Source: Candidatus Sungiibacteriota bacterium | Lineage (GTDB): Bacteria > Patescibacteriota > Minisyncoccia > Sungbacterales > HO2-52-23 | Reading direction: 5' to 3' | Length of the DNA: 64,000 nucleotides | NCBI GenBank assembly: GCA_016180435.1 | Contig: JACPBG010000004.1 | Location: 59,660-123,659 of the forward strand | Shown: in pieces, positions 6,963 through 54,660 of the stretch | Numbering within the stretch: position 1 is the stretch's first letter | How the letters are laid out: every line of letters begins with the position of its first letter | Notes under the pieces: model-generated | Told to the model about the DNA's origin: nothing | What the model saw: the letters and a program-made list of their open reading frames with translations, nothing else | The model's database searches: none | Program-made: the position numbers and the translations under genes

Positions 6963-6968
6963 AGCATA

Positions 6969-9195: not shown

Positions 9196-9197
9196 AA

Positions 9198-9716: not shown

Positions 9717-9718
9717 GT

Positions 9719-9789
9719 TGGACCTACGGGGAGTCGAACCCCGACCTCATCCATGCCATGGATGCGTAATGCCGCTTTACTATAGGCCC
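9719..9789 (-). tRNA. tRNA-Ala (anticodon GGC), G3:U70 present, CCA not encoded
   Basis: cloverleaf folds by hand: acceptor GGGCCTA/TAGGTCC, anticodon loop ATGGCAT, T-loop TTCGACT. Confidence 0.85.
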
Positions 9790-9817
9790 GTTTCGATCTT
9801 AAATTGTGATGATATTA

Positions 9818-10303: not shown

Positions 10304-10343
10304 ATAAAAAATATTTTACGAATAATAATTTTATACGACCGTA

Positions 10344-10790: not shown

Positions 10791-10900
10791 ATTATTTTTT
10801 TATCCTCAATTCTAAACTTTGCACGAACCCATTTTGAGCATAACCTTGGGCCATAGTGGGCGCAAGGTGACCTCCGCAGCTCACCCAGCCCCGCCATTGG

Positions 10901-10938
10901 CTCCTTTTCAATTAGAAATCAATTTTTGTGGGTTTTGG
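10901..10938. repeat. 38-bp inverted repeat, left copy (tccttttcaattagaaatcaatttttgtgggttttggg)
   Basis: perfect reverse complement at 12105-12142. Confidence 0.8.
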
Positions 10939-11040
10939 GGCGTTACTGACTTGCCGCTAGGTAGGCCGGAGTTACCCGAGTATGATGTATAAAATGATTT
11001 GCCACAAACAAATTTATTGTTACACCCCTGCGAACTAATT

Positions 11041-12048
11041 TTATCGCATTCTTAACTCGCACGCTTCTCGTGAGCTCATGGACTTGCCGTCAACAATAAA
11101 AGAATGTTTTATAAGCGAATTATCAAAGGTGCTGCACGGATTCGGATCAGAATAAGAAGTTTTATAAGCTAGGATACACTTTTTAAAGTTTGGCGCATAA
11201 ACAAAAAGTTCGTTGCAAATAGTCACGTCTCTTGATTTTATGGCGTAAGCAACTATACAAGCACCTGTCGCATCTTCCGGTAAATCGATTTTTATATTGA
11301 GATCATTTTTGGGCTCTGGTCTAATTTTATACTTTGAAGAGGTCAAGCGCGCTACTTCTGGTTTTTGGCACTCAACAACTGATTTTGCGGCATAAATCCT
11401 GTTGTAGAAAATAGCTTCTGCAAAAGTATAGTTAAAAATATATGCCCCCATCAATATTACTATTAAAAATATGAACCCTATTCTGTAGTAAAAAAATGAT
11501 TTTACTTTACTAATACCGGATATAACTCCTGCTACCCACATCATGCCTGCCAGGTAAGCCGTGTATAAAATATAGGACATTGTATTAACTAAATATAAAG
11601 GGGTTTCTACATCAAGAAAGAATTTTAAGTTTTCGGCACCGACTAGAAATATGTTTAACAAATAATGCCTTAAAAGCGTTATGCCGACTCCATCATAAAT
11701 ATTAGAATCTCTAACCGCTGGTATTAAAAGTAGTACCAAGAATAATATTGCTAAAAAATATTTTTTGGTAAGAAATTTTTTAGTTGTAAAAAATATTACT
11801 AGTGCATAACCTACCACAAGTCCAAGATTTATTAAGGCGTTAAATGGAGCCCAAAGAATACTAGGAAACAAGGCTGTGTAAAATACAAATCCACATCCTC
11901 CAAAGGAGCAACCATAATAAATCAAAGGCGCTGAAAGCGCTATAATAAACGAGAAGAAAAACAATCTTTTCCTAGAATATACAAACTTTTCTGTAATAGT
12001 TCCAGTGGACATTAATTTAAGAATAACTTGTCGGTCTTTTATTATCAA
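11041..12048 (-). CDS. AT-rich polytopic membrane protein with Cys-rich C-terminal extracytoplasmic region; hypothetical
   Basis: ~8 TM helices, C-terminal CxxxC-rich tail; markedly lower GC than neighbours. Confidence 0.55.
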   Translation of the reverse strand: MIIKDRQVILKLMSTGTITEKFVYSRKRLFFFSFIIALSAPLIYYGCSFGGCGFVFYTALFPSILWAPFNALINLGLVVGYALVIFFTTKKFLTKKYFLAILFLVLLLIPAVRDSNIYDGVGITLLRHYLLNIFLVGAENLKFFLDVETPLYLVNTMSYILYTAYLAGMMWVAGVISGISKVKSFFYYRIGFIFLIVILMGAYIFNYTFAEAIFYNRIYAAKSVVECQKPEVARLTSSKYKIRPEPKNDLNIKIDLPEDATGACIVAYAIKSRDVTICNELFVYAPNFKKCILAYKTSYSDPNPCSTFDNSLIKHSFIVDGKSMSSREACELRMR

Positions 12049-25435: not shown

Positions 25436-27427
25436 TTATTTAAAAATTCGTCTGGCGTAGCTTAACAGGTTCTGCCAGCAACACTCCCGGTATCCTCTAT
25501 TCTGCAATAGTTCTTTCTTTATTTTGTCTAGGTTCTGCTTGGCTTTGTTGGGGTCAATCCCTTTGTCTTTCTCTTGATCCAGTGAATTCCAACATACTGC
25601 ACGCCTCACTATATCGTGATATTCGCTTATGATTTGCTTGGTCACCGCTTCTTCGAGCGGCAGATGGCTATCAAAATCATACGGCGGATCTCCCGGCAGG
25701 TTAGAATCCACACATTTTCTGAAATCATCGGCAGCTACTCCAATCACCGCGATTTGTTCCTCAATCTTTTCAAGAAAGTCCCGATTTGGATCTATGCACG
25801 TCACCTTGTTTTCGGCGTCCCGGATTTCAACTTTTTGTTTTTTTAAAAGGGCTTTCGTGTGAACCGCATAATCGTTGAAATACGTTTTTTGCCGCTCGGT
25901 GAATGCGGAGGATCCGACATGGCCGCGTACCAAATCTTCAAAGGCGCGATCTTGATACCAATCCCCCTCCAGCGGCGCGTGATCATATTCTCCCGATGAA
26001 TTCTTATCAATGGGGACCCACTTTTTTATCCGCGCCAAAGAGTCGCTTTCAAGGTTTTCAAAATTGGCTTCACGAATCGTCCTGATAAATTGGTTGATGC
26101 CTATGCAATTGTTCTGTTGCCCGGCCAACGCCATCAGATTGCCACCTTGGCGCATAGTCAGGCCGCGCGTTCCGTCTTTAGGCCTTTTATCACAGAGTTC
26201 TCGAAAACTATGTTTGACGAGGAATTTTCTATCGTCAGAAATCATGGCGCCGCCGCCGTAAAAAAGCGCCGCCTCGGCATTTTCGAGCTTCAGCTTATAT
26301 GGATAGTTATCCGTGTCAAGACGAGATGCGGTTATTACCTGACAGGCGGCCTCCTCTACCCACGGGACAAAGTGAAAACTGCGTCCCTCACTCATTGATT
26401 CTTTGCGCTGAATCTTAAGTTCCGCAACCGGATCCATAACCATAGGAAATGTTACGGAAACCACTCGATCAATGAGCGCGTCCTCTTTTGGAAACGCCTC
26501 TTTGATCGTTTTATTACTAATGCTTACAACCGCTATGTCCGGCCACCAGTCGGTTTGATCCCGGCCCTTGAACCAGCCGTCGCTGACCATCCGGCTTAAC
26601 CTGCCGCAAAATTCTAGGTTTTGTGCGGGAAAGTCAACAAAGAAAAGCCCACCGTTGGCCAAATCAATTACTCGGTACCAATCCTCCGGAATTTTTGAAA
26701 CCCTGCCTTCCTTGTCAAATTCCGGTTCAGTCAACCTCCCCTCGATCTGCAACATCCCGATACCTGCCCCCAGGCGGTATTCAGATGATTTTACCGGCAT
26801 ATTTTCCCATTTTCCGCCAAATTCATTTTGAAAACGCTCTTCGCATCCTCGACACAGCCGTCCTCGAAAACGAGACAGGCGAGAAGCTATATTTTCATGG
26901 CATAACACCTTTTGAATATCATCCCGCGGGTGTCCTATTTTTTTCCGCAGTGTACGCGGAATGGCGTTTAACGGATGCTCGTGGTGCGGACATTCCTCAA
27001 GGTAAAAAAAGCTTTCTTCTTCCATTTTGTCCGCGATGAGTTTCAGCCACGTTGTCTTTCCTACCCCGGTTTTGCCGGTGACCTCGAGTATTCTCCGCTC
27101 CATGGCTCCGCCGGATGCTGCTTGTCTGAAGAATTCGCCTGTTTCCGCCAAATAGGGATCAATGCCGACAAGTTCATTTTTGAACAAAGGAAAACGCATA
27201 TACTGCGGCGGTTGATTGTGAAACAGATTTTTCTCACGCGGGGCCTTGAGCTCCGATAGGATTTCCGGCCCCTCCCCGTTTATAGTCGAGGAAATCGCTT
27301 TCCATACTTTGCTGTATGCGCGATCAAGCAGTTCGGGTTTTTCCTGGGCGCACCTTAAAAGGTCTCCAATTGTTTTGATTTCGCTTGACATTTTGTCAGC
27401 TCCTTTTCCGATTCTGATTTTATTCAA
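25436..27427 (-). CDS. PrkA-like paralog (divergent PrkA-family AAA/serine-kinase-like protein)
   Basis: Walker A VTGKTGVGKTTWL, CP..H..PL, FGGKWENMP, FLEKIEEQIAVIGVAADDFRKCV all parallel motifs in the adjacent canonical PrkA. Confidence 0.7.
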   Translation of the reverse strand: MNKIRIGKGADKMSSEIKTIGDLLRCAQEKPELLDRAYSKVWKAISSTINGEGPEILSELKAPREKNLFHNQPPQYMRFPLFKNELVGIDPYLAETGEFFRQAASGGAMERRILEVTGKTGVGKTTWLKLIADKMEEESFFYLEECPHHEHPLNAIPRTLRKKIGHPRDDIQKVLCHENIASRLSRFRGRLCRGCEERFQNEFGGKWENMPVKSSEYRLGAGIGMLQIEGRLTEPEFDKEGRVSKIPEDWYRVIDLANGGLFFVDFPAQNLEFCGRLSRMVSDGWFKGRDQTDWWPDIAVVSISNKTIKEAFPKEDALIDRVVSVTFPMVMDPVAELKIQRKESMSEGRSFHFVPWVEEAACQVITASRLDTDNYPYKLKLENAEAALFYGGGAMISDDRKFLVKHSFRELCDKRPKDGTRGLTMRQGGNLMALAGQQNNCIGINQFIRTIREANFENLESDSLARIKKWVPIDKNSSGEYDHAPLEGDWYQDRAFEDLVRGHVGSSAFTERQKTYFNDYAVHTKALLKKQKVEIRDAENKVTCIDPNRDFLEKIEEQIAVIGVAADDFRKCVDSNLPGDPPYDFDSHLPLEEAVTKQIISEYHDIVRRAVCWNSLDQEKDKGIDPNKAKQNLDKIKKELLQNRGYRECCWQNLLSYARRIFK

Positions 27428-27558
27428 AAGTTAACGTGCTGGGTTAGATATACGACATAATTATATAAAATACAAGGGCGTCTCGTACCAAATAAAATTC
27501 CCGTCACGTAAACGTAACGGGCTACTAAGTTCTAAGATCTAAGTTCTTGGTGCTTGTC

Positions 27559-29493
27559 TTAATCTTTCCACAGGTTATTGGCCGCGTATTTGAGAATCAC
27601 GTCCACGCAGCTCGGGCAGTATCCATGCTCAAGGAGATTTTTGGTCATCATGTCGTATTTTTCCGTTTGCTCCGTGTCGCGCATGCGCGACTTGGTGATA
27701 ACCCGGCTTAGGTCGCGCACCGAAGTGATGAGTTTTTTCTCAATGGCCTCTTTGAGTGGCTCGTAACTGCGGAAGTCAATCTTTTCTTCGCGCCGCTTGG
27801 CTGCCCATAGATAGGAGATCACTTCCTGGCGGAATCCGTCGGCGGCCGAGCCGATGATGGCGATTTGCTCCTCGATTGATTTCATGAATCCTTCGTCGGG
27901 CGCCAACTCTTCTTTGGTGTTGCGATCCTTTACTTTGCTCTTGTTAACGTAGGCCTCGGCGTGATCCAGGTAATTCTGGAATAGCGCCTCCGCCTGCTCC
28001 TGGTAGGAATAGACAAACGCGCGGGTAATCTCCTTTTCCAGCACCTCAAGGTACTCCTTGTGCAGTGTATCCTGGAGAAACTCCAGATACTGCTTGCGCA
28101 TTTCGTCCGACAGATCAGCTTCCTTCACCATGTTGATCAGCGCTTCCCGAACATTGATGGGGTTGATGCAGTTGCCAGCGGTATTGTCGGTGAGCGCGTT
28201 ATCCAAGGCCTTCATTATGAAGCGCGTGGAAATACCGTTCATGCCTTCGCGTTTGGCTGCCTCGCGCAATTCCTGTACATCAACTTTCTTGGTGCGCCCC
28301 TTCTCAAGCACCTCTTCGCCGTTATACAGCTTCAGCTTGGTCATGAGGTCGCACTTGTTGGTGGGCTCCAGGCGCGACAGGATCGCGAACATGGAGGCGA
28401 CCTCCAGGGTGTGCGGCGCCACGTGGGCGCGGAAGTCGGAGTTGCGGATGATCTTCTGATAAATTTTAACTTCTTCGGAGAGGCGCAGGTTGTAGGACAC
28501 GCGAATCACCACAATGCGATCCAGAATCGCTTCGTTGGTGTGGTCTCCCTTGAATTTCTGCCACTCAGCCTCGTTGGAATGGGCCACGATAACTGTGTCC
28601 ACATAGACCAATCCGTGGCGGCCGGGCGCGGGCACAACCTTTTCTTGGGTCGCCGTGATCATGCAATGGAGATACTCGATTTCGTTTTTGAAAACCTCAA
28701 TGAACTCAACTATGCCGCGGTTGCCAACATTAAGCGCGCCATTTAGTTCCAGGACCCGCGGATCGCCCTCGGAATAGAGATCCAACTTCGAGATATCTTC
28801 GCTGCCGATCAGTACGGAAGTATCTTGGTTATTGGAATCCACAGGCGGAACCGATGCGGTACCGACCCGCGCGCGTTTGGAAAATTCCACGGTAGTAATT
28901 GGGAAGTCCTCATACTTGCCGCCGAACTCTTCTTTAAGCCGATAACGGCAGACCGGACACAGGTCGCCTTCAATGTGAATTCCCAGCATCTTTTCAAATT
29001 CTTTTCTCAAGTGGCGCGGTATCAAATGCAGGGGCTCTTCGAACATCGGACAGCCATCAATGGCGAAGATGGGATCGCTTGCCTCCAGGCCTCGATTCAG
29101 TTTTTCCGCAAGCGAGCTTTTGCCGGAACCCACCGGACCCATCAGATAGAGCACCTGGCGGCTTTCTTCACCTTTGAGCGATGCGGCGTGGAAGTAGCGC
29201 ACGATCTGGCTGACTATTTTCTCGATGCCGAAGAACTCATCGGTGAAGAAATCGTAAACCTTGATTGACTCGTCTTTGAAAAGACGTTTAACGTGGGGGT
29301 CGGTGCTTTCCTGAATGTCGCGGACGCCTGCTTTGACGATGATGTCATAAAAACGGGCGTGAGCCAGCTTGGCGATGGAGGGATCTTCCTTGATCTTGTC
29401 GAGGTAGCCGAGTAGCTTCCCGCTCCAATCATTTCGCCTATGGTGTGTTTCTCGGTCCTGTCTGATCAGTTCTCTGTATTCGTCTTCGCTCAT
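27559..29493 (-). CDS. prkA: PrkA-family serine protein kinase (YeaG-like)
   Basis: LYLMGPVGSGKSSLAEKL, FGGKYEDFP, NGALNVGNRGIVEFIEVFK, HCMITATQEK, IVAHSNEAEW, EEQIAIIGSAADGFRQEV. Confidence 0.85.
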   Translation of the reverse strand: MSEDEYRELIRQDRETHHRRNDWSGKLLGYLDKIKEDPSIAKLAHARFYDIIVKAGVRDIQESTDPHVKRLFKDESIKVYDFFTDEFFGIEKIVSQIVRYFHAASLKGEESRQVLYLMGPVGSGKSSLAEKLNRGLEASDPIFAIDGCPMFEEPLHLIPRHLRKEFEKMLGIHIEGDLCPVCRYRLKEEFGGKYEDFPITTVEFSKRARVGTASVPPVDSNNQDTSVLIGSEDISKLDLYSEGDPRVLELNGALNVGNRGIVEFIEVFKNEIEYLHCMITATQEKVVPAPGRHGLVYVDTVIVAHSNEAEWQKFKGDHTNEAILDRIVVIRVSYNLRLSEEVKIYQKIIRNSDFRAHVAPHTLEVASMFAILSRLEPTNKCDLMTKLKLYNGEEVLEKGRTKKVDVQELREAAKREGMNGISTRFIMKALDNALTDNTAGNCINPINVREALINMVKEADLSDEMRKQYLEFLQDTLHKEYLEVLEKEITRAFVYSYQEQAEALFQNYLDHAEAYVNKSKVKDRNTKEELAPDEGFMKSIEEQIAIIGSAADGFRQEVISYLWAAKRREEKIDFRSYEPLKEAIEKKLITSVRDLSRVITKSRMRDTEQTEKYDMMTKNLLEHGYCPSCVDVILKYAANNLWKD

Positions 29494-29583
29494 CTTTTTT
29501 CTCCTTGTTTTGTGGCCAATATTGAGTTACCAAAGATCACATTACGTAAGCGCACTATAGCGCAAACCCCCATAAAAAGTCAA

Positions 29584-29684
29584 CCCCGTTAGAAGTTTGG
29601 TCCTGAAATCTCCATACGATTCAAATAATCCAACTATTATTGTGATGACGCATACACCGGGTGAGGATTACACTTCTAACGGGG
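29584..29684. repeat. RPE-like palindromic element family 1, intergenic copy
   Basis: CCCCGTTAGAAGT ... ACTTCTAACGGGG termini. Confidence 0.8.
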
Positions 29685-29929
29685 TCAACCCCCCAGTTTT
29701 GTACAATACGAGATTAGCCCCAAATAATCCTTAACTATACGGTATCAAAGGTAATTCCTCGACTCGCTCGGCTCGCTTGGAGAATATTGTTCGAGTTTAT
29801 CGAGAACCTTCCTAAGGTAACCGCGCAGCAAGCTGACGCGGAATTATCAAGTTAAAAAACCCATGAAATTCCATGGGCCCATTTTATTGAGGTGAAGACG
29901 GGGCGAGCAAGCCCGCGGTTTTCTGGGGC

Positions 29930-29962
29930 GCGGATAAAAAATCGGGCGAGGCCCGATTAAAT
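29930..29962 (-). terminator. rho-independent terminator downstream of Pup-like locus (AATCGGGCctcGCCCGATT + T-run on minus strand)
   Basis: hairpin followed by TTTTTTATCC on coding strand. Confidence 0.6.
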
Positions 29963-31674
29963 TAACTCATATTTATTTCATCTTCATTTTCCGGATGTGT
30001 ATCGGATATCGCCGGTCTGAATTTTTTGGCGGCGCGATTTACTTGCGCCAGCGCTTTTCTGTCGCGGGCGGATATTTTGTAACGCTCCGGGTCGAGGTTT
30101 TTGATATATAGGATTTTGGCGGATCTCTTGCCTGCATTAAATACAAAAGTAAACTCTTCCCAAACAGAGTCAACCAGGCATTTTTTATCGAGCTCGCGGG
30201 AAAAAATTATCCGGAGTATTTCTTCGCGCCAGTTAGCGCGCGTGCGTTCCGGCGGATTTTGCGTGGCCCACCTGACAAGATTTTCCGGAAATAATTTTTT
30301 AATAAGGCCGGCGCGAAGATACTGGCCGTAGGGACTTTGGGCGGTGTCCATGAATGCGTACTCGGATATGAACTCAAGAATATCTCGCAAAACATCCTGG
30401 TTGGAAGATGTGGGGATTTTTCCAACCGGCCGTTCTTCGCCGCGCGGCAGGATAGCTTCCGGATCAAACCCTCGGCTTTTCAGATACGGCATGATAAAAT
30501 AATGCAAAATCGCGGCCCAATCCAGGAATTGCGCAAGATACGGGAGGTCCCAGTGGGCGATCGCATCAATTATGTTTTCCCAGAGATTAAGGGCAAGTTT
30601 CCGTTCCGGGCTGAAGGATTGGCGTCCCGGCCCCGCAAAAAATTCCTGCGCCTGTTTTATGTAGAAGCGCTGGAAATCAAGCGCGTTCCAGCGTAAACCC
30701 TCTTCCAGAAGCGAAACCGGATTTTTTGATCCGGGGTCGGCGTTAAAAAAAAGCGAGGCCTCGAATAAATCCATCGGATAAATGTTCGGCGGGATCTTTA
30801 GAAATTTCTCTTCGGCCATGGTCAGAATAATGTCCAGCGTTGCATATTTCAAAAACAATTGCCATGCGGACATCGTGGAATTTCCTGACACATCATGGTG
30901 GCGTCTCCATCTCGTTTTGTCTGCGTATTGAGAATCTTTTTTTGAGAAGAAACTGGGTTTGTCTTCGGCCTTCCTGTTATTTTTCATGACCTCGGCGCGT
31001 TGGGAGAGGACAAACTGCAGGGTGTTGTCCGTTGCATTGATTTTTATCCAGCCGTTTCCAATAAGGCACCAGCGCGATATTAAAAACGGTATAATTAATT
31101 CGAAAAAATCACTGCGTTTGGAAAAGACCGATTTTTTTACCAAATAATTGGCATGCGAGCCCCAGCTGTTAACATCTAAATCCACCATCGGATACAATTC
31201 CACGTCGTAACAACAATTTCGGTTGGTCTTATAAAGTTTGAAATCCAAACCGGTTTTTCTTTTCAGGCGCCGCATCATCTGCGTCATAATCTGGAGCCCC
31301 GCGCTCTCAAAAAGCGCAAGTTCCAGGGCGCCCAGGCACTCCGGAGTGGAATATTCCACATGTTCGTTATCTATATAGATGATTCCTTGATTAGGAAGAA
31401 CGGCTTTGGGACGCCGGTTTGAGAAGCTGTCGTCATCCGGGTTGATTAGCCGGCGGCGGTCTTGTTTTGAAACCGCAGCGCGCAGAATCAATGGCTGATT
31501 TTCCGATTCCTTGACAAGAAGAAAAGGCTCCGGCGAACTTAATTCATTTTCGGCGCCCATGATGCGATGGATTATTCTTTCGGTTTTTTGCGAACCCATG
31601 CGTGTACCGTATTGAATTGGCAAGTTCCTGAATAAAGCATCGCAAGATATACGAAATAAAGCAAGCGGCGGCAT
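29962..31674 (-). CDS. PafA/Dop-family (Pup ligase/deamidase family) homolog 2; start may be internal Met (~31599)
   Basis: RIMGAENE (cf. RIMGIETE), IYIDNEHVEYSTPEC (cf. LYLDVGSHPEYATAEC), WGSHANYLV (GCHENYL), FVLSQRAE (LSQRA), RRHHDVSGNSTMS (RRLHVIVGDSNMS). Confidence 0.7.
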   Translation of the reverse strand: MPPLALFRISCDALFRNLPIQYGTRMGSQKTERIIHRIMGAENELSSPEPFLLVKESENQPLILRAAVSKQDRRRLINPDDDSFSNRRPKAVLPNQGIIYIDNEHVEYSTPECLGALELALFESAGLQIMTQMMRRLKRKTGLDFKLYKTNRNCCYDVELYPMVDLDVNSWGSHANYLVKKSVFSKRSDFFELIIPFLISRWCLIGNGWIKINATDNTLQFVLSQRAEVMKNNRKAEDKPSFFSKKDSQYADKTRWRRHHDVSGNSTMSAWQLFLKYATLDIILTMAEEKFLKIPPNIYPMDLFEASLFFNADPGSKNPVSLLEEGLRWNALDFQRFYIKQAQEFFAGPGRQSFSPERKLALNLWENIIDAIAHWDLPYLAQFLDWAAILHYFIMPYLKSRGFDPEAILPRGEERPVGKIPTSSNQDVLRDILEFISEYAFMDTAQSPYGQYLRAGLIKKLFPENLVRWATQNPPERTRANWREEILRIIFSRELDKKCLVDSVWEEFTFVFNAGKRSAKILYIKNLDPERYKISARDRKALAQVNRAAKKFRPAISDTHPENEDEINMS

Positions 31675-31710
31675 GAAAAAACGGGGAATATTCCCCGTAG
31701 AAATAAGTAT

Positions 31711-31911
31711 TTATTCGCCTTTTTCCTGTATGTGGCGGCGCCTTTTGCGTCGGGCCTTTTTCTTCAGATCCTTCTTGTTTTTCTTGAGTACCTCGTTGAT
31801 CCTTTTCTTTATTTCCTCCGCTTCCTCAACTGTGGCTCCAGGATTATTTATCACACCCCGCTCGGGGATATTGAATTCCGGGCGCTCTATTTTCTCGCGT
31901 TTTACCGGCAT
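31711..31911 (-). CDS. candidate Pup/UBact-like small protein modifier (66 aa, ends -QEKGE)
   Basis: located between two PafA/Dop homologs; helical segment ATVEEAEEIKKRINEVLKKN resembles Pup Mpa-binding helix TEETDDLLDEIDDVLEENAE; C-terminal Gly-Glu like Pup -GGQ/-GGE. Confidence 0.5.
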   Translation of the reverse strand: MPVKREKIERPEFNIPERGVINNPGATVEEAEEIKKRINEVLKKNKKDLKKKARRKRRRHIQEKGE

Positions 31912-31974
31912 AAAGACCTAATTTGCGCATATTTATCGGTTCTCATAACATTTTACGCCATATCCGAAAAATCA

Positions 31975-33567
31975 TCAAACGCAGAATTTCACAACTTTAA
32001 CCGGAATCATTCTTTCGGCATCGGCCAGAAATTTTTCAAGCGGCAGAGCCAGAAGCTGATCGGCAACTCCTTGGTTCCACATAAGAGTCGGGTCTTGGAA
32101 ATAAAGTTCTGCGCGGACAGTTCTTTTGGCCGGATTTTTAAATGAAATCATGTGCCAATAATTAGAGTCCGCAATATTTTTTTTGAAGCGGCGCGCCACA
32201 TTCATAATCCAGCGCGAGCGGGTTAGGGGCGGGGCGCCCACGGCGCCGTTGATATCCTGGTCGTGCGTAATGCGTCCGTTTTTGGCGAAAATTTCGCGCT
32301 GGAACACGCTTTCCGGATCATTATCATGGTATTCGTAGTCAAGCCCCATGGCTAAATCGCTTTTCCAGCCCCCTCGCTCTTGGGAGACGGCGTTTTGTAT
32401 GAATAGGAATTTGGTCGGCCAATCCAAAACGCCATAAAGCGATTCGTAGTCGCGCCGGAAAAGTTTTTTAAGAATATCGGCCAGGCGCGCTAAAACATCA
32501 TAAAGCACTTCATTTTCCGGATGATATTCATCCAGATAATTTCCGAAAAGTTCGTAATAATCCCAAAGGCAATCAAGCGCGAGGCGCGTTCTTTTTTTAT
32601 TTCGCAAAGTAACGCGGTGCGTCATGTCAAGCGAGCGCGAAATTGCCCAAAATTCTTTAACAGGATCCATGAGGGCGAAGCGGTTGTCCAGTACCTCATC
32701 CTCAAGCATCATAAAAAGTATGGATGTTAAGCCAATTTTGAGATACTCCGGAATTTCCAGCATATTGGAATCGCCGGGAATAACATGTATTCGGCGGAAG
32801 CGTCCGGCGTCGGCATACGGAGCGTCGCGGGTGTTATATATTCCCCGATCCTCCATGGTGTCCAGTCCCCACTCGCAGGTGAAAAAATCAGCGCGCTGGG
32901 AAATCTGGTAAGGCGCCTCCGGGGTGCAGTTGTCTGCCCCGATTTTGCCGGCTCCGATAAGAGGCGTGCGCAACACCAGCCACGGCACCGTATGCGATAT
33001 TAATTTTTCTAAAGGAATCCGGCGCAAAACCGTATAATTTTCGTGGCAAGCAAAAGAGTTGCGGGCGCCGGAGCCAGGAATATAATCTTGCGGTTTTCCG
33101 GCAACGTTATTTCTAATTACGGCGTATTTTTTTCTGTGAACCTCCTCGTGTTTTTTTCGCAAGAAATCAATTATGCGGTAACAGGCGCGATTCCAGGTAA
33201 TGAGCATTTTCGGATCAGAGCAGATCGGAGTTGAAATCTCGACATGCGCGCCATCAAGATATAGCCGGGCGCCGTTGGCAAGCAATATATTTTCACGCGA
33301 GCACCAGGAGTTCTCCTCAAAAAAATCATGATTTTTAGCGTCAGCATTTTTGGAAAGATCGCTAAACAACTCCGCTCGTATTTGCGGGCTTAATCTCTCC
33401 TGCGGATTCCACGGGATCATGCATGCATCCGGCATCCATTCGGGTTGGATGGATTGAATGAATTTGGCGTTGGCCGATATAGGGCCTGCGCGGGATGACA
33501 GATCAATGATCCCGAATTCGGTTTCAATCCCGCACATCTTGGGAATGGCGCGTGATTCTTTTGGCAT
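31975..33567 (-). CDS. PafA/Dop-family homolog 1 (clear member)
   Basis: MCGIETEFGI, NGARLYLDGAHVEISTP, FACHENY, ISQRADF, YNTRDAPYADAGRFRRIHVIPGDSNM. Confidence 0.85.
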   Translation of the reverse strand: MPKESRAIPKMCGIETEFGIIDLSSRAGPISANAKFIQSIQPEWMPDACMIPWNPQERLSPQIRAELFSDLSKNADAKNHDFFEENSWCSRENILLANGARLYLDGAHVEISTPICSDPKMLITWNRACYRIIDFLRKKHEEVHRKKYAVIRNNVAGKPQDYIPGSGARNSFACHENYTVLRRIPLEKLISHTVPWLVLRTPLIGAGKIGADNCTPEAPYQISQRADFFTCEWGLDTMEDRGIYNTRDAPYADAGRFRRIHVIPGDSNMLEIPEYLKIGLTSILFMMLEDEVLDNRFALMDPVKEFWAISRSLDMTHRVTLRNKKRTRLALDCLWDYYELFGNYLDEYHPENEVLYDVLARLADILKKLFRRDYESLYGVLDWPTKFLFIQNAVSQERGGWKSDLAMGLDYEYHDNDPESVFQREIFAKNGRITHDQDINGAVGAPPLTRSRWIMNVARRFKKNIADSNYWHMISFKNPAKRTVRAELYFQDPTLMWNQGVADQLLALPLEKFLADAERMIPVKVVKFCV

Positions 33568-34994: not shown

Positions 34995-35092
34995 TTGTCG
35001 ATTTTTCCTGGAAAAGTTCTACTTTATTCTTATCATCCCGCGTCAAATAGCGCAAATTAAAAATCGGCCCGGCGGGGTCTTAGTTTTTGAAA

Positions 35093-35164
35093 TGGGGATG
35101 GCAGGGATCGAACCTGCGACGGCCGTCTTATAAGGGCGGTGCTCTACCACTGAGCTACATCCCC
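35093..35164 (-). tRNA. tRNA with anticodon TAT (UAU; Ile-type), acceptor GGGGATG/CATCCCC
   Basis: anticodon loop CTTATAA read by hand from cloverleaf; one C:A mismatch in anticodon stem. Confidence 0.6.
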
Positions 35165-35246
35165 ACAAAAAAGCTTGCCCTCCTAAATTTTGCAATACAA
35201 AATTTTGGAGGGTGAAGAAGGACAAGCCAAGCCACATGCTCATAAA

Positions 35247-39938: not shown

Positions 39939-41639
39939 TTAAAACGCCAATTGTTGGAGTTTTTTTTGGATTTTTTCTTCCTGCCCTCTTCGTGCGAAGT
40001 CATATTCGCCCATGTTTACGCGCATATGCTCGGCAATTAGTGGATAAGCTTTTTCCAAAAGCTTGAATTTTTCCTGCGCAATATGGCGATAATCCGGATG
40101 TCCCTCGGGAATGGAGCGTAATTCCATTTCCCAAAAACATTCGCGCAGATTTTCCCATTGCATAAAGCGCACGCGATGCGCCAGGGTTACGGCATATTGC
40201 GCCAGAGCCGGATTTTTACGGCTGATTTTATAAAATACGTCCTCGGCTTTTTTAATTGCTTCCGAAAATTCATCCGTAAGTCCTGCCTCGGTAATTTCCG
40301 GCGGCACATGATATCCGTGATAGCAGGAAAAATCCTGTCGCATCTGGGTAAGCATGCGGTGGCGGTGCAAATCGCGCCAGGCCCCGATATTTACGGCAAT
40401 TTCAAAGCGCACATAGGCATTTTCAAACGCGCGCCCCACTCTTTGCCAGCGTTCGGTCCGGTTGCCAAGATACGCGGCGATGATTTTTCGTTTTTCATTC
40501 GTAGACATTTTTTGCACGCGCATAAAAATCTCCTCCCAGGGTAAATGGTTTCGCGGAGCGGAAAATAAAATGCCCGTAATAATTTTTTCTTCCCCCCGCG
40601 GGTCATATTCAATGAGAAAAACTTCGGTTTCGCCGCGCGAGGATACGAGTCGCTCTCCGAGCCCATCTTTCATCAACGGAAATACGCGCTCGCCCTTTTT
40701 TGCCAAATACTCCTGGTAATTTTTAGAATTTTCCTGCTCTATTCTTCGTAAAAACGACGGAACCGCGGTATTCAGTTCCTGATATGCCATCCGGGCAACC
40801 CAGCGGATTTCGCCAAGCGCGTGGCGCGATGAGCGGGTGATAAGATATTCAAATGCCTGTCCGTTGCCGAAAAATGCGACCTGGGAAAGCGTGGATACCG
40901 GCAAAAGGCCGCGGAGCGTATCAAACGCCTTTTTTTCCACTACTGCGGGTTTTTCTTCCGAAAAACGCTTTTGCAGCCATTCGGTCAGGCGCGGAATAAG
41001 ACGCGTATATGTTTCAAAAAGTCCGTCCATAGCGGTGCGGTATTCGGCTTCAAGCCCCATTTCTTTTAGGGTCGGATCGGTGTAATAAAGATATGAACCG
41101 CCTGCTTTTTTGGAATAATTTACATAGCGGGTGGATTTTTCAATGGGCGCCAATCCTATGCGCTGGTCTTCAAGGTGTTTAATGGCAACCTGTGAGATTC
41201 CGGTGAAAACCAGATGCATTCCGGCCATCTGGGCTATGGAGTCGTCGCCGTATTCGGCGAGCCACTTTACGTAAAAAGCGCGCGCCTTGGGGTTTGAAAA
41301 AATTTCAAGAAACGGGTGCTTTTGCAGAAATTCCACAAATTCGGCAAGCGATCTCCCGTATTTTTCTTTTTCCGCAAAACTTTCATCCGTATCTTTAGGA
41401 TCGCACGCGGGATTTAAAAACGGACCGATAAACTCTTTCAAAAAAATCAGGCGTAAATCATCCGCGGCGCGGCTGGTGCGGGAACACAACGCGCCGATGA
41501 GCTCCGGCGCAAAAATCAGCGGCACATATACGGATTTATCCAAATTGGTAAAAAATGGCGCAATCAGTTTGCATTCTTCTGCGGTGTAATCATCCGGTTT
41601 AAAAATTGGAGCGAATTCTTCAGATGGTTTCATGAGCAT
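39939..41639 (-). CDS. tandem-domain flavin-dependent thymidylate synthase (ThyX)-like protein
   Basis: C-terminal half has ThyX-like RHRxxxxxS region WRDLHRHRMLTQMRQDFS; N-terminal half degenerate repeat; adjacent to tmk. Confidence 0.45.
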   Translation of the reverse strand: MLMKPSEEFAPIFKPDDYTAEECKLIAPFFTNLDKSVYVPLIFAPELIGALCSRTSRAADDLRLIFLKEFIGPFLNPACDPKDTDESFAEKEKYGRSLAEFVEFLQKHPFLEIFSNPKARAFYVKWLAEYGDDSIAQMAGMHLVFTGISQVAIKHLEDQRIGLAPIEKSTRYVNYSKKAGGSYLYYTDPTLKEMGLEAEYRTAMDGLFETYTRLIPRLTEWLQKRFSEEKPAVVEKKAFDTLRGLLPVSTLSQVAFFGNGQAFEYLITRSSRHALGEIRWVARMAYQELNTAVPSFLRRIEQENSKNYQEYLAKKGERVFPLMKDGLGERLVSSRGETEVFLIEYDPRGEEKIITGILFSAPRNHLPWEEIFMRVQKMSTNEKRKIIAAYLGNRTERWQRVGRAFENAYVRFEIAVNIGAWRDLHRHRMLTQMRQDFSCYHGYHVPPEITEAGLTDEFSEAIKKAEDVFYKISRKNPALAQYAVTLAHRVRFMQWENLRECFWEMELRSIPEGHPDYRHIAQEKFKLLEKAYPLIAEHMRVNMGEYDFARRGQEEKIQKKLQQLAF

Positions 41640-49853: not shown

Positions 49854-50399
49854 TTATAGTTTTTTTATTTGTAATGAATCCAGTTCTACGGGCGTGTCGC
49901 GGCCGAATACGTTAACAAGCACCTTGATCTTGCCGCGGTCCTGGTCCACTTCCGATACTTTGCCGTCAAAGTCCTTAAAGGGGCCGTCGGTAATTTTTAT
50001 CGGATCCCCGATCAATACATCAATTTTGAATTTGGGTTCCTCCTCTCCGACGCGATTCAGTAAAACCTCCATTTCTTCGGGTGAAAGCGGAGTGGGCGTG
50101 GTGCCGGCGCCGATAAATCCGGTAACGCGGGGAGTATTTCGCACTACGTACCAAGAGTCGTCGGTCACGACCATCTCCACCAAAACATACCCGGGATAAA
50201 TTTTTTCTTCAACTACGCGCCGTTTCCCGCTTTTAATTTTTATTTTTTTCTCCACCGGCACGAGCACGTTGAAAATTTTATCCTCCATACCCATGGATTC
50301 GATGCGTTGTTTTAAGTTTCGCGCAACCGCATCCTCATACCCGGAATAGGTATGGACCGCGTACCAATTGCGCCCGAATTCCGATGTTTGTTTAGGCAT
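49854..50399 (-). CDS. nusG: transcription termination/antitermination factor NusG
   Basis: NGN domain WYAVHTYSGYEDAV..., KOW GDPIKITDGPFKDFDGKVSEVD. Confidence 0.9.
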   Translation of the reverse strand: MPKQTSEFGRNWYAVHTYSGYEDAVARNLKQRIESMGMEDKIFNVLVPVEKKIKIKSGKRRVVEEKIYPGYVLVEMVVTDDSWYVVRNTPRVTGFIGAGTTPTPLSPEEMEVLLNRVGEEEPKFKIDVLIGDPIKITDGPFKDFDGKVSEVDQDRGKIKVLVNVFGRDTPVELDSLQIKKL

Positions 50400-50529: not shown

Positions 50530-50715
50530 CTAAAGAATGAATGTATTCAAAATAAACTGGAATAAATAATCCAGCCCTCCCAAAAATACGGCAATGACCA
50601 GGCTTACGGCAACCACGGTTACTGTATAGCGAATCGTGTCTTCGCGATTCGGCCAAGTTACTTTTTTGAGTTCAAGCCTGGTTTCTTTAAGAAAAGTAGT
50701 AAGACGTTCCAACAT
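50530..50715 (-). CDS. secE: preprotein translocase subunit SecE (start at MLERLTTF)
   Basis: 61 aa, single C-terminal TM, KKVTWP motif. Confidence 0.8.
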   Translation of the reverse strand: MLERLTTFLKETRLELKKVTWPNREDTIRYTVTVVAVSLVIAVFLGGLDYLFQFILNTFIL

Positions 50716-50728
50716 ACCGCGCTTCGCG

Positions 50729-50859
50729 CCGCAATGATGCCAATCTATAAATCTTATGCTAATCCACAAATTGCAAATGAATATTCTCGATAGACTCGAA
50801 TAATAATTATTCGCAATTCGCTAAATTGGCATTAAATTCGCATCGGATTGGCATCACTG
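50729..50859 (-). ncRNA. ~131-nt structured repeat element copy B, 14 nt upstream of secE start
   Basis: direct repeat of 50413-50529. Confidence 0.45.
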
Positions 50860-51109: not shown

Positions 51110-53218
<2,109 letters not shown>

Positions 53219-53349: not shown

Positions 53350-53393
53350 GGACTTCAGTAGCACACTATTGAAGTCCGACTTCAATAGACTAC
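53350..53393. other. 14-bp perfect inverted repeat hairpin GAAGTCGGACTTCA-n12-TGAAGTCCGACTTC between pheS end and gyrB start
   Basis: seen directly; no T-run so not a classic intrinsic terminator. Confidence 0.5.
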
Positions 53394-54547
53394 CGCAATA
53401 AAGCATGAAATATTTTCTCGGTTTGTTGATAAATTTTGGCTTGAATCGGGTCTATTTCTTCGGTTAAAAGCGTTCGTTCATTACTGCGGTATGTGATCCG
53501 ATAAGTGTAACTTATTTTTCCCGGGCCGAATTTTTCCTTATTTTCGTAGCGATCCAAAAGTTTCACTTCTTCCACCATATCTCCTCCCAAATCGCGGATA
53601 AGGTCAAAATAATTGTTGGGCACGAAATCATTTTTTACGATAAAGGAGATATCGCGGGTGATCTGCGGGAATTTTGAGACCTCTTTAAACTTATTACCCA
53701 ATTTTAACTGGTTTTTTACCCTTGGGTTTTCCGACCAGAGCAGTCGGATATCCGGTAGCGACATGGAAACAATTGCCAAGCGCTCGAGTCCGAAGCCAAA
53801 CGCCCAACCGTGGTAGCCCGTTAAACCAAAATTGGCAAGCACGCTTTTTCTTGCCATGCCGGAACCCAGCATTTCGATCCATTGGCTGTTTATTTCAGCT
53901 TCCATTTCAAAACTTGGGTCGGTATACGGAAATTGGTGCTCATAAAAGCGGAAATTTACGTCGCCAAAAATACTGCGGGCTATTTCAGACAGCGCGTTTT
54001 TTAGATCCACCGGGGTTATGGTGTGTTTATCATCCGGCGTTATATAAAGGCCGCCGAATTGATGGAAAACATTCATGTGCTTGCCGTCTATTTCATCTTT
54101 GCGATAGACCTTGCCGTAGCAAATAGCTCCCAAAGTTTCCTGGTTTTCAATTCTTTTTTTGATTTCGGGGTGGTTTAAATAATAATACCAAAAAACCGTA
54201 TCATGGGTCCTCAAAACATGATTATCGTCCACATAATATGTGTCAGATTTGCTGCGGGCAGGATGACCCGGGGGCATATTGAAAAGATCAAATAAAATAT
54301 AAGTGGAAACTATTTCCGGTATGTCTATTACATCAAATCCCACAAGACTTTTGACCCCGCAAGCCCTGTCAATAATTTCTTTTAAGGGACCCCCTTTTGT
54401 CCGTGAAAGATCGGGCATAGCCAAGAAGCGCAGGATGCGTTTGGCTTCCGGATCGGCGCGTTTTTTCAATTCCTGAAGGATTTTTTGTTCCTCATCGCGC
54501 GGGATATGGATTTCTTCTCCGGTTGTTTTGGTGAGTAGTGATGACAT
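53390..54547 (-). CDS. pheS: phenylalanyl-tRNA synthetase alpha-like single-chain enzyme with C-terminal FDX-ACB-like anticodon-binding domain (mitochondrial-type architecture)
   Basis: class II motifs PPGHPARSKSDTYYV, FRxE region, GWAFGFGLERLAIV (motif 3); ~100-aa C-terminal extension FPQITRDISFIV... Confidence 0.75.
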   Translation of the reverse strand: MSSLLTKTTGEEIHIPRDEEQKILQELKKRADPEAKRILRFLAMPDLSRTKGGPLKEIIDRACGVKSLVGFDVIDIPEIVSTYILFDLFNMPPGHPARSKSDTYYVDDNHVLRTHDTVFWYYYLNHPEIKKRIENQETLGAICYGKVYRKDEIDGKHMNVFHQFGGLYITPDDKHTITPVDLKNALSEIARSIFGDVNFRFYEHQFPYTDPSFEMEAEINSQWIEMLGSGMARKSVLANFGLTGYHGWAFGFGLERLAIVSMSLPDIRLLWSENPRVKNQLKLGNKFKEVSKFPQITRDISFIVKNDFVPNNYFDLIRDLGGDMVEEVKLLDRYENKEKFGPGKISYTYRITYRSNERTLLTEEIDPIQAKIYQQTEKIFHALLR

Positions 54548-54660
54548 GATTTTTGTATCATATCACTTTTGGGTAAAAAATAAAGTATGCCCACTTTTTC
54601 CGTTTGAGCGGGAAAAGTGGGCATACTTTGAAGTAAAAATTTCTACCGGGATTCAATTTT

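What the first reader, a model, noticed from the sequence alone, without database searches (positions are those of the whole stretch)
53390..54547. Single-chain PheRS with C-terminal FDX-ACB-like domain and no pheT nearby
The alpha-type catalytic core (HPAR, motif 3 GWAFGFGLERL) is followed by a ~100-aa ferredoxin-like extension (FPQITRDISFIVKND..YTYRITYRS). This is the architecture of monomeric mitochondrial PheRS, which lacks a beta subunit. No pheT is adjacent, where in most bacteria it directly follows pheS.
Basis: partly seen in the sequence, partly recalled or inferred. Interest (0 to 1): 0.55.

Follow-up and report, generated by a model that had tools for sequence, protein, structure and literature searches.

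The report
Single-chain mitochondria-like PheRS in CPR bacteria
This ultra-small (CPR/Parcubacteria) bacterium encodes a one-piece phenylalanyl-tRNA synthetase built like the mitochondrial enzyme instead of the two-subunit enzyme expected in bacteria; it is probably the cell's working PheRS, and one active-site acidic residue has moved to a neighbouring position.

Summary
Window 53390-54547 (minus strand) encodes a 385-aa protein with a PheS-type class II core (Pfam PF01409, E=2e-51) fused to an FDX-ACB anticodon-binding domain (PF03147, E=3e-22). Its AlphaFold model (pLDDT 91) superposes end to end on human mitochondrial PheRS (TM 0.76). No pheT or second pheS is in the 64-kb window, or in 1.27 Mb around orthologs from 80 Parcubacteria genomes.

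The gene belongs to a very large Parcubacteria family. It is more conserved than neighbouring gyrB and sits in a housekeeping locus (gyrB-secE-nusG). NCBI calls it 'hypothetical'; it falls below the cut-offs of pheS, pheS_mito and the 'mystery ligase' SrmL.

The family has two orthologous subtypes. The canonical motif-2 acid (FHQxD/EG) is Gly here (FHQFGG), and the neighbouring HTT strand is HDT. There are no intermediates among 240 sequences. In human mtPheRS these two positions hold the same water that anchors the substrate amino group, so the carboxylate moved and was not lost.

Published family counts show about 400 CPR genomes lacking both canonical subunits. This suggests replacement but does not prove it. 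Genome-wide absence of pheT and enzymatic activity were not tested. I found no paper describing this.

The parts
53390..54547 (-). Whole gene: 385-aa single-chain PheRS-like protein (NCBI 'hypothetical protein HYT98_04235', Candidatus Sungbacteria MAG)
   Evidence: ORF list; 100% identical database entry P0001
54398..54547 (-). N-terminal region (aa 1-50): helical, with no Phe_tRNA-synt_N coiled-coil domain; contains the family-conserved 'MPDLSR' segment
   Evidence: No Pfam hit in this region; helices 18-29 and 33-43 in the model; conservation
53708..54397 (-). Class II PheS-type catalytic core (aa 51-280), with HPAR (95-98), motif 2 VYRKDEID...FHQ (147-163), FPYTDPS (206-212) and motif 3 GWAFGFGLERL (247-257)
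   Evidence: PF01409 E=2.1e-51; residues invariant in 120/120 family members; coordinates
54155..54196 (-). Clade-specific insertion VFWYYYLNHPEIKK (aa 118-131) after the H-D-T strand; shared by CPR and Oligoflexia single-chain forms, absent from canonical alpha and mitochondrial enzymes
   Evidence: Alignment; helices 116-124 and 127-134 in the model
54200..54202 (-). Codon of Asp116 (Thr in canonical, mitochondrial and type-B enzymes; equivalent to human mtPheRS Thr120, a ligand of the conserved water X9)
   Evidence: PMC5521548
54053..54055 (-). Codon of Gly165 (Glu/Asp in all other PheRS examined; equivalent to human mtPheRS Glu159, a ligand of the same water X9)
   Evidence: PMC5521548
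53924..53926 (-). Codon of Tyr208 (second aromatic residue of the Phe-ring 'edge-to-face' pair; Phe in canonical and mitochondrial enzymes, e.g. human Phe234)
   Evidence: PMC5521548
53393..53677 (-). FDX-ACB (ferredoxin-fold anticodon-binding, PheT-B8-type) domain, aa 291-385, with conserved RDISF and SYTYRITYRS segments
   Evidence: PF03147 E=3.3e-22; pheT_bact model positions 691-798; beta-alpha-beta-beta-alpha-beta elements in the model
54582..54629 (-). Strong hairpin followed by a U-run (54574-54581): intrinsic terminator of the upstream CARDB gene, so the PheRS gene is a separate transcription unit
   Evidence: RNA fold -35 kcal/mol, z=-6.6; only sub-threshold Rfam hits
54557..54565 (-). 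TGATATGAT, an extended -10-like element 9 nt upstream of the ATG (inferred promoter; not found by the two-hexamer scan)
   Evidence: Sequence read directly; the scan found no -35/-10 pair here
51110..53203 (-). gyrB, immediately downstream; conserved neighbour of the family
   Evidence: Pfam; gyrB within 1.5 kb downstream in 40 of 63 GTDB loci; same order in type-B locus L097
49854..50769 (-). secE (50530-50769) and nusG (49854-50399), completing the conserved housekeeping synteny PheRS-gyrB-secE-nusG
   Evidence: Pfam; identical order in Yanofskybacteria loci L096/L097

Best explanation
The gene encodes a single-chain phenylalanyl-tRNA synthetase with the mitochondrial architecture: a PheS-type class II catalytic core fused directly to the B8/FDX-ACB anticodon-binding domain that normally ends the beta subunit. 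It has no coiled-coil N-domain and no B1-B7 domains, so it has no B3/B4 editing site. It would activate Phe with ATP in the core. The FDX-ACB domain would then swing from the closed to the open position to hold the GAA anticodon of tRNAPhe, and Phe would be transferred to A76, as described for human mtPheRS. I propose that it is the housekeeping PheRS of this Sungbacterium and of a large part of the Parcubacteria, and that it has most likely replaced the (alpha-beta)2 enzyme there. In the window's subtype the carboxylate that helps hold the conserved water anchoring the substrate alpha-ammonium group has moved from the motif-2 position (Glu/Asp to Gly165) to the adjacent H-T-S strand (Thr to Asp116). 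Shown: domain architecture, fold, conservation, synteny, the two-state covariation, and absence of pheT/pheS locally. Inferred: Phe specificity, tRNAPhe charging, monomeric state, compensation by Asp116, and absence of pheST genome-wide.
For: Architecture and fold:
- PF01409 plus PF03147.
- Best solved relatives are human mtPheRS over both domains (E~5e-55).
- The AF2 model has pLDDT 91 and pTM 0.87. Its Foldseek TM is 0.76 to closed mtPheRS over about 386 columns, against about 0.52 for bacterial alpha subunits.

Catalytic and specificity residues:
- HPAR, the motif-2 Arg149, the motif-3 Arg256, F206, T209 and A249 (the last two aligning with the E. coli PheS pocket residues; alignment) are invariant in 120/120 sequences.

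Selection and context:
- The protein is more conserved than adjacent GyrB (median 70% against 62% identity; higher in 79% of genome pairs).
- It was found in 216 GTDB species representatives.
- The locus PheRS-gyrB-secE-nusG is housekeeping and conserved.

Carboxylate relocation:
- 121 sequences are H-D-T/FHQ.G(G/A) (mostly FHQFGG) and 119 are H/Q-T-T/FHQxDG, with no D/D or T/G combinations.
- The two types occupy the same locus in different lineages.
- In human mtPheRS, Thr120 and Glu159 both hydrogen-bond the water X9 that anchors the alpha-NH3+ group (PMC5521548). The same network is described in M. tuberculosis PheRS (PMC8136816).

Replacement of pheST:
- There is no PheT or second PheS in the window or in 1.27 Mb around 80 orthologs.
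- Meheust 2019 Supplementary Data 1 lists canonical PheS in 1645 and PheT in 1642 CPR genomes, against 1978-2118 for Ala/Ser/His/ArgRS. Non-CPR bacteria show no such gap.
- The lineages carrying this gene account for a few hundred genomes in that dataset.
- A stand-alone PheT-B2-type tRNA-binding gene lies directly upstream in 21 of 76 genomes.
Against: No whole genome could be scanned, so pheST may exist elsewhere. The 1.27-Mb sample would contain only about 1.6 pheST loci by chance even if every genome had one. Meheust's clustering (coverage >=0.5) could have merged single-chain proteins into the PheS family, and in that case the count argument fails. The protein scores below every curated cut-off: pheS_mito 213.8 against 258, pheS 167.5 against 237. 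Its top NCBIfam hit is the 'PheS-related mystery ligase' SrmL, at 217.6 against 300. The universal motif-2 acid is missing and Phe260 (T. thermophilus numbering) is Tyr; compensation by Asp116 is inferred from a homologous crystal structure and was not measured on this model. The T/D-to-D/G switch may be a single evolutionary event, so the covariation has little statistical weight. Some mycobacterial-size genomes (an Oligoflexia MAG) carry relatives that probably coexist with pheST. No activity data exist.
Confidence: 0.72

Rival explanations
1. It is a PheS-derived paralog ('mystery ligase', like NCBIfam SrmL). It would coexist with a canonical pheST elsewhere in the genome and would use the class II core plus an RNA-binding domain for another reaction, such as a Phe analogue, another acceptor RNA, or a non-translational aminoacylation.
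For: The top NCBIfam hit is SrmL (217.6 bits) and the protein fails the pheS_mito and pheS cut-offs. The otherwise universal motif-2 Glu/Asp is Gly and the pocket Phe is Tyr, both invariant. Genome-wide presence of pheST was not excluded. A related protein occurs in an Oligoflexia MAG in a non-housekeeping context.
Against: The score is well below the SrmL cut-off of 300, and none of 20 related representatives is an SrmL. The carboxylate is relocated to a ligand of the same water and not lost. Type-B orthologs in the same locus keep the canonical site. The locus is housekeeping and the protein is more conserved than GyrB. There is a matched CPR deficit of about 400 genomes for both canonical subunits. 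Genomes under 1 Mb rarely keep a redundant 385-aa aaRS paralog (inference).
Confidence: 0.14
2. It is a genuine PheRS, but a second copy that coexists with canonical (alpha-beta)2 PheRS. It could be, for example, an inhibitor-resistant or stress isoform acquired by horizontal transfer.
For: Duplicate or xenologous aaRS copies used for antibiotic resistance are well documented (PMC5388404). Single-chain PheRS genes are mobile enough to occur on huge-phage-like contigs. Whole genomes could not be checked.
Against: The gene appears vertically inherited. Its divergence correlates with GyrB (r=0.49), its chromosomal locus is conserved across Parcubacteria lineages, and type A and type B each form a well-supported clade. 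It is near-ubiquitous among the sampled lineages. The published PheS/PheT deficit in CPR also argues against it.
Confidence: 0.1
3. It is an artefact: eukaryotic (mitochondrial FARS2-like) or phage DNA mis-binned or mis-assembled into a bacterial contig.
For: The closest characterised relatives are eukaryotic mitochondrial enzymes. Short relatives sit on phage-like contigs.
Against: The identical gene is flanked by the same bacterial genes on independent assemblies from six or more sequencing runs. Orthologs occur in 216 species-level genomes with conserved gyrB/secE/nusG synteny. Identity to the fission-yeast mitochondrial enzyme Msf1 (P0146) is only 32% (29-30% to human mtPheRS by Foldseek) and to the phage-like form 39%. 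CPR sequences form their own clade with 100% bootstrap.
Confidence: 0.01

Closest known systems
Mitochondrial phenylalanyl-tRNA synthetase (human FARS2, PDB 3CMQ/3TUP/5MGH; yeast Msf1; NCBIfam TIGR00469 pheS_mito)
   Same: It has the same two-domain single chain (PheS-type core plus FDX-ACB). It uses the same fusion junction ('PDIRLxWSxDxR...Q' followed by the 'SK(Y/F)P...RDISF' segment). The whole-chain fold matches (TM 0.76 to the closed state). It lacks the coiled-coil N-domain and the editing domains. The catalytic cores of all single-chain forms group together against canonical alpha subunits (100% NJ bootstrap).
   Different: It is bacterial, chromosomal and in a housekeeping locus. Identity is only about 30-32%. 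It scores 213.8 against the TIGR00469 cut-off of 258. It forms a CPR clade separate from the mitochondrial/phage-like clade. It has a 14-residue insertion after the HTS strand. Glu159 is replaced by Gly with Thr120 replaced by Asp, and Phe234 is replaced by Tyr. In a quarter of genomes it is accompanied by a stand-alone PheT-B2-like gene.
Canonical bacterial (alpha-beta)2 PheRS: PheS (TIGR00468) plus PheT (TIGR00472)
   Same: The catalytic core is homologous to PheS (E. coli PheS E=1e-33), with the same motifs 1-3 and Phe-pocket residues (the residues aligned with E. coli T251 and A294). The C-terminal domain is homologous to PheT domain B8.
   Different: It is one chain instead of two genes. 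It has no Phe_tRNA-synt_N domain and no B1-B7, so no editing site and none of the beta-subunit scaffold that the alpha subunit is generally held to need for activity (from general knowledge, not checked here). It scores below the pheS cut-off (167.5 against 237). No adjacent pheT.
NCBIfam NF051887 'PheS-related mystery ligase SrmL'
   Same: It is the best-scoring NCBIfam model (217.6 bits), aligned over core plus C-terminal domain (model positions 31-345 of 349). SrmL therefore also appears to be a single-chain PheS-like protein of similar length.
   Different: The score is far below the curated cut-off of 300. No true SrmL member was found among 20 relatives scanned. I found no literature on SrmL, so its defining context and function could not be compared.
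Single-chain PheRS genes on huge-phage-like contigs (e.g. P0279 on a 340-kb contig; LR745206.1, 635 kb)
   Same: They have the same architecture. They are about 39% identical to the window protein, and they keep the canonical acidic residue.
   Different: They are shorter (about 340-360 aa). The P0279-type short forms pass the pheS_mito cut-off and cluster with mitochondrial enzymes, not with the CPR clade; LR745206 was not scanned against NCBIfam and fell outside both clades in the tree. They are accessory genes of mobile genomes, not genes in a chromosomal housekeeping locus.

Membership tests
Mitochondrial-type single-chain PheRS (architecture PF01409+PF03147; TIGR00469) | PheS-type class II catalytic core with motifs 1-3 | tested here: met
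   PF01409 E=2.1e-51. HPAR, motif-2 Arg and motif-3 GWAFGFGLERL are invariant.
Mitochondrial-type single-chain PheRS (architecture PF01409+PF03147; TIGR00469) | FDX-ACB anticodon-binding domain fused C-terminally in the same polypeptide | tested here: met
   PF03147 E=3.3e-22, full-length model match at aa 291-385.
Mitochondrial-type single-chain PheRS (architecture PF01409+PF03147; TIGR00469) | Absence of the alpha N-terminal coiled coil and of beta-subunit domains B1-B7 (no editing domain) | tested here: met
   No other significant Pfam domain. Only pheT_bact positions 691-798 are matched.
Mitochondrial-type single-chain PheRS (architecture PF01409+PF03147; TIGR00469) | Whole-chain fold equivalent to solved mtPheRS | tested here: met
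   Foldseek against PDB: 5MGH/3CMQ E~1e-34, TMq 0.76 over about 386 columns; open form 3TUP TM 0.58. The model has pLDDT 91.
Mitochondrial-type single-chain PheRS (architecture PF01409+PF03147; TIGR00469) | Score at or above the curated TIGR00469 equivalog cut-off (258.35 bits) | tested here: not met
   213.8 bits. Eukaryotic and phage-like relatives reach 260-407 bits.
Mitochondrial-type single-chain PheRS (architecture PF01409+PF03147; TIGR00469) | Canonical substrate-binding residues (human His119, Thr120, Ser121, Gln157, Glu159, Phe232, Phe234) | tested here: inconclusive
   His115, Gln163 and Phe206 are kept, and Ser is conservatively replaced by Thr117. Thr120 is Asp116, Glu159 is Gly165 and Phe234 is Tyr208. 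The first two are ligands of the same water, which suggests compensation.
Mitochondrial-type single-chain PheRS (architecture PF01409+PF03147; TIGR00469) | Common ancestry of the catalytic core with mitochondrial enzymes to the exclusion of canonical alpha subunits | tested here: met
   NJ, 226 core columns, 300 bootstraps: all single-chain forms against 5 canonical PheS at 100%. The CPR clade is distinct from the mitochondrial/phage clade. This is NJ only, with a small outgroup.
Mitochondrial-type single-chain PheRS (architecture PF01409+PF03147; TIGR00469) | Active as a monomer; charges tRNAPhe with Phe | not testable with these tools
   Needs biochemistry.
Canonical bacterial PheRS alpha subunit (TIGR00468 pheS) | Score at or above the cut-off of 237.45 bits | tested here: not met
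   167.5 bits.
Canonical bacterial PheRS alpha subunit (TIGR00468 pheS) | N-terminal Phe_tRNA-synt_N (PF02912) coiled-coil domain | tested here: not met
   No PF02912 hit at E<=1.
Canonical bacterial PheRS alpha subunit (TIGR00468 pheS) | Partner beta subunit (pheT), usually adjacent | tested here: not met
   None in the 64-kb window and none in 80 orthologous loci covering 1.27 Mb. Genome-wide presence could not be tested. Published counts suggest absence in about 400 CPR genomes.
PheS-related mystery ligase SrmL (NF051887) | Score at or above the curated cut-off of 300 bits | tested here: not met
   217.6 bits.
PheS-related mystery ligase SrmL (NF051887) | Family-specific genomic context or function | not testable with these tools
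   No paper mentions SrmL in this sense. No member was recovered for comparison.

The most novel reading that the evidence does not exclude
The single-chain enzyme is the only PheRS in a large part of the Parcubacteria, and related forms serve other CPR lineages such as the UGA-recoded ones. That would make the (alpha-beta)2 PheRS, with its editing site, non-universal in Bacteria. In addition, because all single-chain cores form one clade spanning CPR bacteria, huge phages and mitochondria, the 'chimeric' mitochondrial PheRS would have been invented in the bacterial/phage world and acquired by eukaryotes, not assembled in eukaryotes.
Probability: 0.3. Interest if true: 0.8.

Novelty: new variant of a known kind. 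Interest (0 to 1): 0.62.

Why it matters
In the reviews and structural papers I read, bacterial PheRS is treated as an obligate (alpha-beta)2 heterotetramer with a beta-subunit editing site, and the monomeric, editing-less form as a mitochondrial peculiarity. If a major bacterial radiation translates Phe codons with a single-chain enzyme, four things follow.

1. The minimal functional PheRS would be a free-living-lineage solution and not only an organellar one.
2. These organisms would lack cis-editing of Tyr-tRNAPhe and m-Tyr-tRNAPhe, which bears on translation fidelity in ultra-small symbionts.
3. The origin of the mitochondrial enzyme becomes directly testable by rooted phylogeny, because bacterial and phage sister groups now exist.
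4. Marker sets and annotation pipelines would be affected. NCBI calls this protein 'hypothetical', and GTDB bac120 uses TIGR00468 and TIGR00472 (from memory). Both would systematically mis-score these genomes.

The two-state D116/G165 against T/D swap is also a clean natural experiment on moving a substrate-anchoring carboxylate between neighbouring positions.

Tried and rejected
1. Direct search for pheT/pheS elsewhere in the genome was not possible. The NCBI contig of this MAG is not in the look-up index (one search returned only Logan contigs of 8 kb or less), and loci are limited to +/-10 kb. The substitutes were six-frame phmmer on the window and on 80 GTDB loci. Both were negative, but the second has low power.

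2. I found no way to obtain a CPR PheT seed for a homology search. Queries with E. coli PheT would return only enterobacterial hits, so I ran no further search on it.

3. Ten literature searches covered CPR or monomeric bacterial PheRS, SrmL and marker absence (and reading in 38, 40, 45, 46, 51). None describes this enzyme. The Vampirococcus supplements held nothing relevant.

4. SrmL membership is rejected on score. Twenty relatives were scanned and none is an SrmL.

5. I first thought Asp116 must point away from the pocket (beta-strand alternation) and that the acid was simply lost. I dropped this after the model showed that residue 116 starts a helix, and after PMC5521548 showed that Thr120 and Glu159 share water X9.

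6. The idea that types A and B are paralogs in one genome is rejected. They occupy the same locus in different lineages, and all 80 GTDB loci are type A. The one MAG with two copies has 90%-identical copies at contig ends, which is probably strain mixing.

7. A T-box or leader-peptide attenuator upstream is rejected. There is no Rfam match above threshold, and the hairpin is the terminator of the upstream gene.

8. The phage-collection search added only host-derived canonical pheS and one huge phage.

9. Contamination by eukaryotic DNA is rejected.
Full report
**What is there**

The ORF at 53390-54547 is on the minus strand and encodes 385 aa. Pfam finds a PheS-type class II core (PF01409, aa 51-280, E=2.1e-51) and a complete FDX-ACB domain (PF03147, aa 291-385, E=3.3e-22).

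The flanking genes are gyrB downstream (followed by secE and nusG) and a 1210-aa CARDB/Laminin_G_3 protein upstream. A strong terminator hairpin (-35 kcal/mol, z=-6.6) separates the gene from the upstream ORF, and no known RNA leader is present.

None of the ten largest other ORFs is a pheT. Six-frame phmmer with E. coli PheT and PheS hits nothing else in the 64 kb.

**Organism and family**

An identical protein is deposited as 'hypothetical protein HYT98_04235 [Candidatus Sungbacteria bacterium]', and the same gene with the same neighbours appears in independent assemblies.

The best 120 database clusters are 75-87% identical and come from Parcubacteria-group CPR lineages: Giovannoni-, Yanofsky-, Doudnabacteria, Paceibacterota and Minisyncoccia. 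NCBI names them 'hypothetical' and JGI names them 'PheRS alpha chain'. A scan of GTDB species representatives found 216 genomes with a relative, and the best 80 are all Parcubacteria-type MAGs.

41% of positions are at least 98% conserved across 120 clusters. The protein is more conserved than the adjacent GyrB (median 70% against 62% identity; higher in 79% of genome pairs), and its divergence correlates with that of GyrB (r=0.49). gyrB follows the gene in 40 of 63 loci. This is the signature of a vertically inherited, essential housekeeping gene.

**Relation to known PheRS**

By sequence, the best solved relatives are human mitochondrial PheRS over both domains (E~5e-55). The closest bacterial alpha subunits score 1e-31 to 6e-34, more distant ones are weaker, and all match the core only. 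An AlphaFold2 model (pLDDT 91, pTM 0.87) superposes on closed-state human mtPheRS over the whole chain (TM 0.76), while bacterial alpha subunits reach about 0.52.

The protein nevertheless fails every curated NCBIfam cut-off:
- SrmL 'PheS-related mystery ligase': 217.6 against 300.
- pheS_mito: 213.8 against 258.
- pheS: 167.5 against 237.

An exhaustive HMMER search of 1.84 billion representatives and follow-up scans identified these relatives:
- Eukaryotic mitochondrial enzymes, which pass pheS_mito.
- Short forms of 340-360 aa, which also pass pheS_mito. One of them lies on a 340-kb phage-like contig.
- An Oligoflexia MAG protein.
- Proteins from a UGA=Gly recoded CPR lineage.

No true SrmL turned up, and no paper on SrmL exists in the library.

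In an NJ tree of the catalytic core alone (226 columns, 300 bootstraps), all single-chain forms separate from five canonical alpha subunits with 100% support. CPR types A+B form a clade at 100%. Deeper groupings have only 66-67% support. The shared fusion junction also points to a single origin of the fusion. Caveats: this is NJ only, and the outgroup is small.

**Active site**

The ATP and class II residues (HPAR, Arg149, Arg256) are invariant. So are the Phe-pocket residues F206, T209 and A249, the last two aligning with the E. coli PheS pocket positions (I recall these as E. coli T251 and A294).

Three positions depart from every other PheRS examined:
- The motif-2 acid (FHQxE/DG) is Gly165.
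- The H-T-S/T strand reads H-D-T (Asp116).
- The second ring-stacking Phe is Tyr208.

A search with the nearest outgroup showed that Parcubacteria contain two subtypes. There are 121 sequences with Asp116/Gly165 and 119 with Thr116/Asp165, and no D/D or T/G combination.

A type-B gene in a Yanofskybacteria MAG sits in exactly the window's locus (PheRS-gyrB-secE-nusG-rplK), so the subtypes are positional orthologs and not paralogs. All 80 GTDB loci are type A.

The structural literature explains the pairing. In human mtPheRS the substrate alpha-NH3+ is held by Ser121 and by a conserved water, X9. That water is hydrogen-bonded to Thr120 O-gamma, Gln157 and Glu159 O-epsilon (PMC5521548). M. tuberculosis PheRS shows the same water-mediated network (PMC8136816). 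Thr120 and Glu159 align with positions 116 and 165.

The carboxylate has thus moved between two ligands of one water. This argues that an alpha-amino acid is still the substrate. The argument is an inference, because I could not measure distances in the model.

**Is it the only PheRS?**

I could not scan a whole genome. The local evidence is negative: in 1.27 Mb around 80 orthologs, the only PheS homolog is the gene itself. The only PheT-like sequences are its own FDX-ACB domain and a stand-alone tRNA_bind gene. However, only about 1.6 pheST loci would be expected in that sample by chance.

Independent published data help. Meheust et al. 2019, Supplementary Data 1, gives the number of genomes carrying each family:

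| Family | CPR genomes | Non-CPR bacterial genomes |
|---|---|---|
| Canonical PheS (PF02912+PF01409, median 341 aa) | 1645 | 1011 |
| PheT (B3_4+B5+FDX-ACB, median 666 aa) | 1642 | 1046 |
| AlaRS | 2118 | 1039 |
| HisRS | 2053 | 1023 |
| SerRS | 2017 | 946 |
| ArgRS | 1978 | 1029 |

About 400 CPR genomes therefore lack both subunits together, and non-CPR bacteria show no such gap. The lineages in which I find the single-chain gene contribute a few hundred genomes to that dataset.

There is a caveat. Their family-merging threshold (coverage >=0.5) does not exclude single-chain proteins having been merged into the PheS family. If they were merged, however, the equal counts of PheS and PheT and their common shortfall would both need another explanation.

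Mukai et al. 2017 note that many CPR PheRS-beta lack domain B2, so other CPR lineages do keep the two-subunit enzyme.

**A partner in some genomes**

In 21 of 76 loci (not in this window), a 130-205-aa ORF lies directly upstream on the same strand. It is a tRNA_bind domain (PF01588). Its best NCBIfam match is the B2 segment of PheT (model positions 41-152, 94-118 bits), ahead of YtpR, CsaA-type and MetRS-C models. It may supply B2-like tRNA binding in trans. This is inference.

**Verdict**

The most likely explanation (0.72) is a functional single-chain PheRS of the mitochondrial architecture. It would serve as the housekeeping enzyme of this Sungbacterium and of many Parcubacteria, probably in place of pheST, with a relocated amino-group-anchoring carboxylate.

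The rivals are:
- A paralogous 'mystery ligase' (0.14).
- A second PheRS alongside pheST (0.10).
- Contamination (0.01).

I found no publication describing a bacterial housekeeping single-chain PheRS, but the library is incomplete. The domain architecture itself is visible in public databases. I therefore class it as a new variant of a known kind, with interest 0.62.

Noticed in passing
window 23-3130 (+): A 1035-aa class I aaRS (tRNA-synt_1 plus Anticodon_1, IleRS-like) carries a complete histidine-phosphatase/phosphoglycerate-mutase domain (His_Phos_1, E=5.5e-47) inserted at aa 571-751. Kantor et al. 2013 described an SR1 IleRS interrupted by nudix and phosphoglycerate-mutase domains. This looks like the same phenomenon in a Sungbacterium.
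   Followed up: partly
window 35092-35165 (-): ARAGORN calls a tRNA-Ile with anticodon UAU. Most bacteria read AUA with a lysidine-modified CAU tRNA. A UAU tRNA-Ile in the same window as an unusual IleRS may be connected.
   Followed up: no
L007 9543-9974; also L012, L016, L021, L027, L028, L030, L031, L033-L035, L039-L043, L046, L049, L055, L064, L070, L087: A stand-alone gene encoding a PheT-B2-type tRNA_bind domain (130-205 aa) lies directly upstream of the single-chain PheRS gene in 21 of 76 Parcubacteria genomes. It is absent from this window.
   Followed up: yes
L092 10001-11047 (340-kb contig); L102 1471-2556 (LR745206.1, 635-kb phage): Single-chain PheRS genes occur on huge-phage-like contigs. 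The 348-aa form passes the pheS_mito cut-off and groups with mitochondrial enzymes, not with the CPR clade.
   Followed up: partly
L090 9463-10833: A 456-aa single-chain PheRS (37% identical, canonical FHQIDG) contains 13 in-frame UGA codons. Several align with conserved Gly positions, so it comes from a code-25 (Gracilibacteria/Absconditabacteria-type) CPR genome next to an ATP-synthase operon.
   Followed up: partly
window 25436-33567 (-): Tandem paralog pairs are present: two PrkA-family proteins (663 and 644 aa) followed by two Pup-ligase-family proteins (570 and 530 aa). This is unexpected cargo for a reduced CPR genome.
   Followed up: no
window 12362-13972 (+) and 13876-13948 (-); 6000-12000: The 3' end of a large serine recombinase gene overlaps a tRNA-Arg(CCU) gene. 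The preceding 6-12 kb has lower GC (0.36-0.39 against about 0.45-0.50). This may be an integrated element at a tRNA gene.
   Followed up: no
window 39939-41639 (-): A 566-aa protein has two Thy1 (ThyX) matches, about twice the usual ThyX length. It may be a duplicated or fused thymidylate synthase.
   Followed up: no
L052 and L071 (MAG JACQLT01): One MAG holds two copies of the single-chain PheRS gene, 90% identical in protein and 83% in DNA, both at contig ends. This is probably two strains binned together and not a duplication.
   Followed up: partly
L094 and L095 (type-B loci on ~0.9-Mb contigs): In these genomes the single-chain PheRS gene is followed by a CCA-adding enzyme gene (PolyA_pol+HD) and lies near gatC/gatA, which is another tRNA-related neighbourhood.
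   Followed up: no
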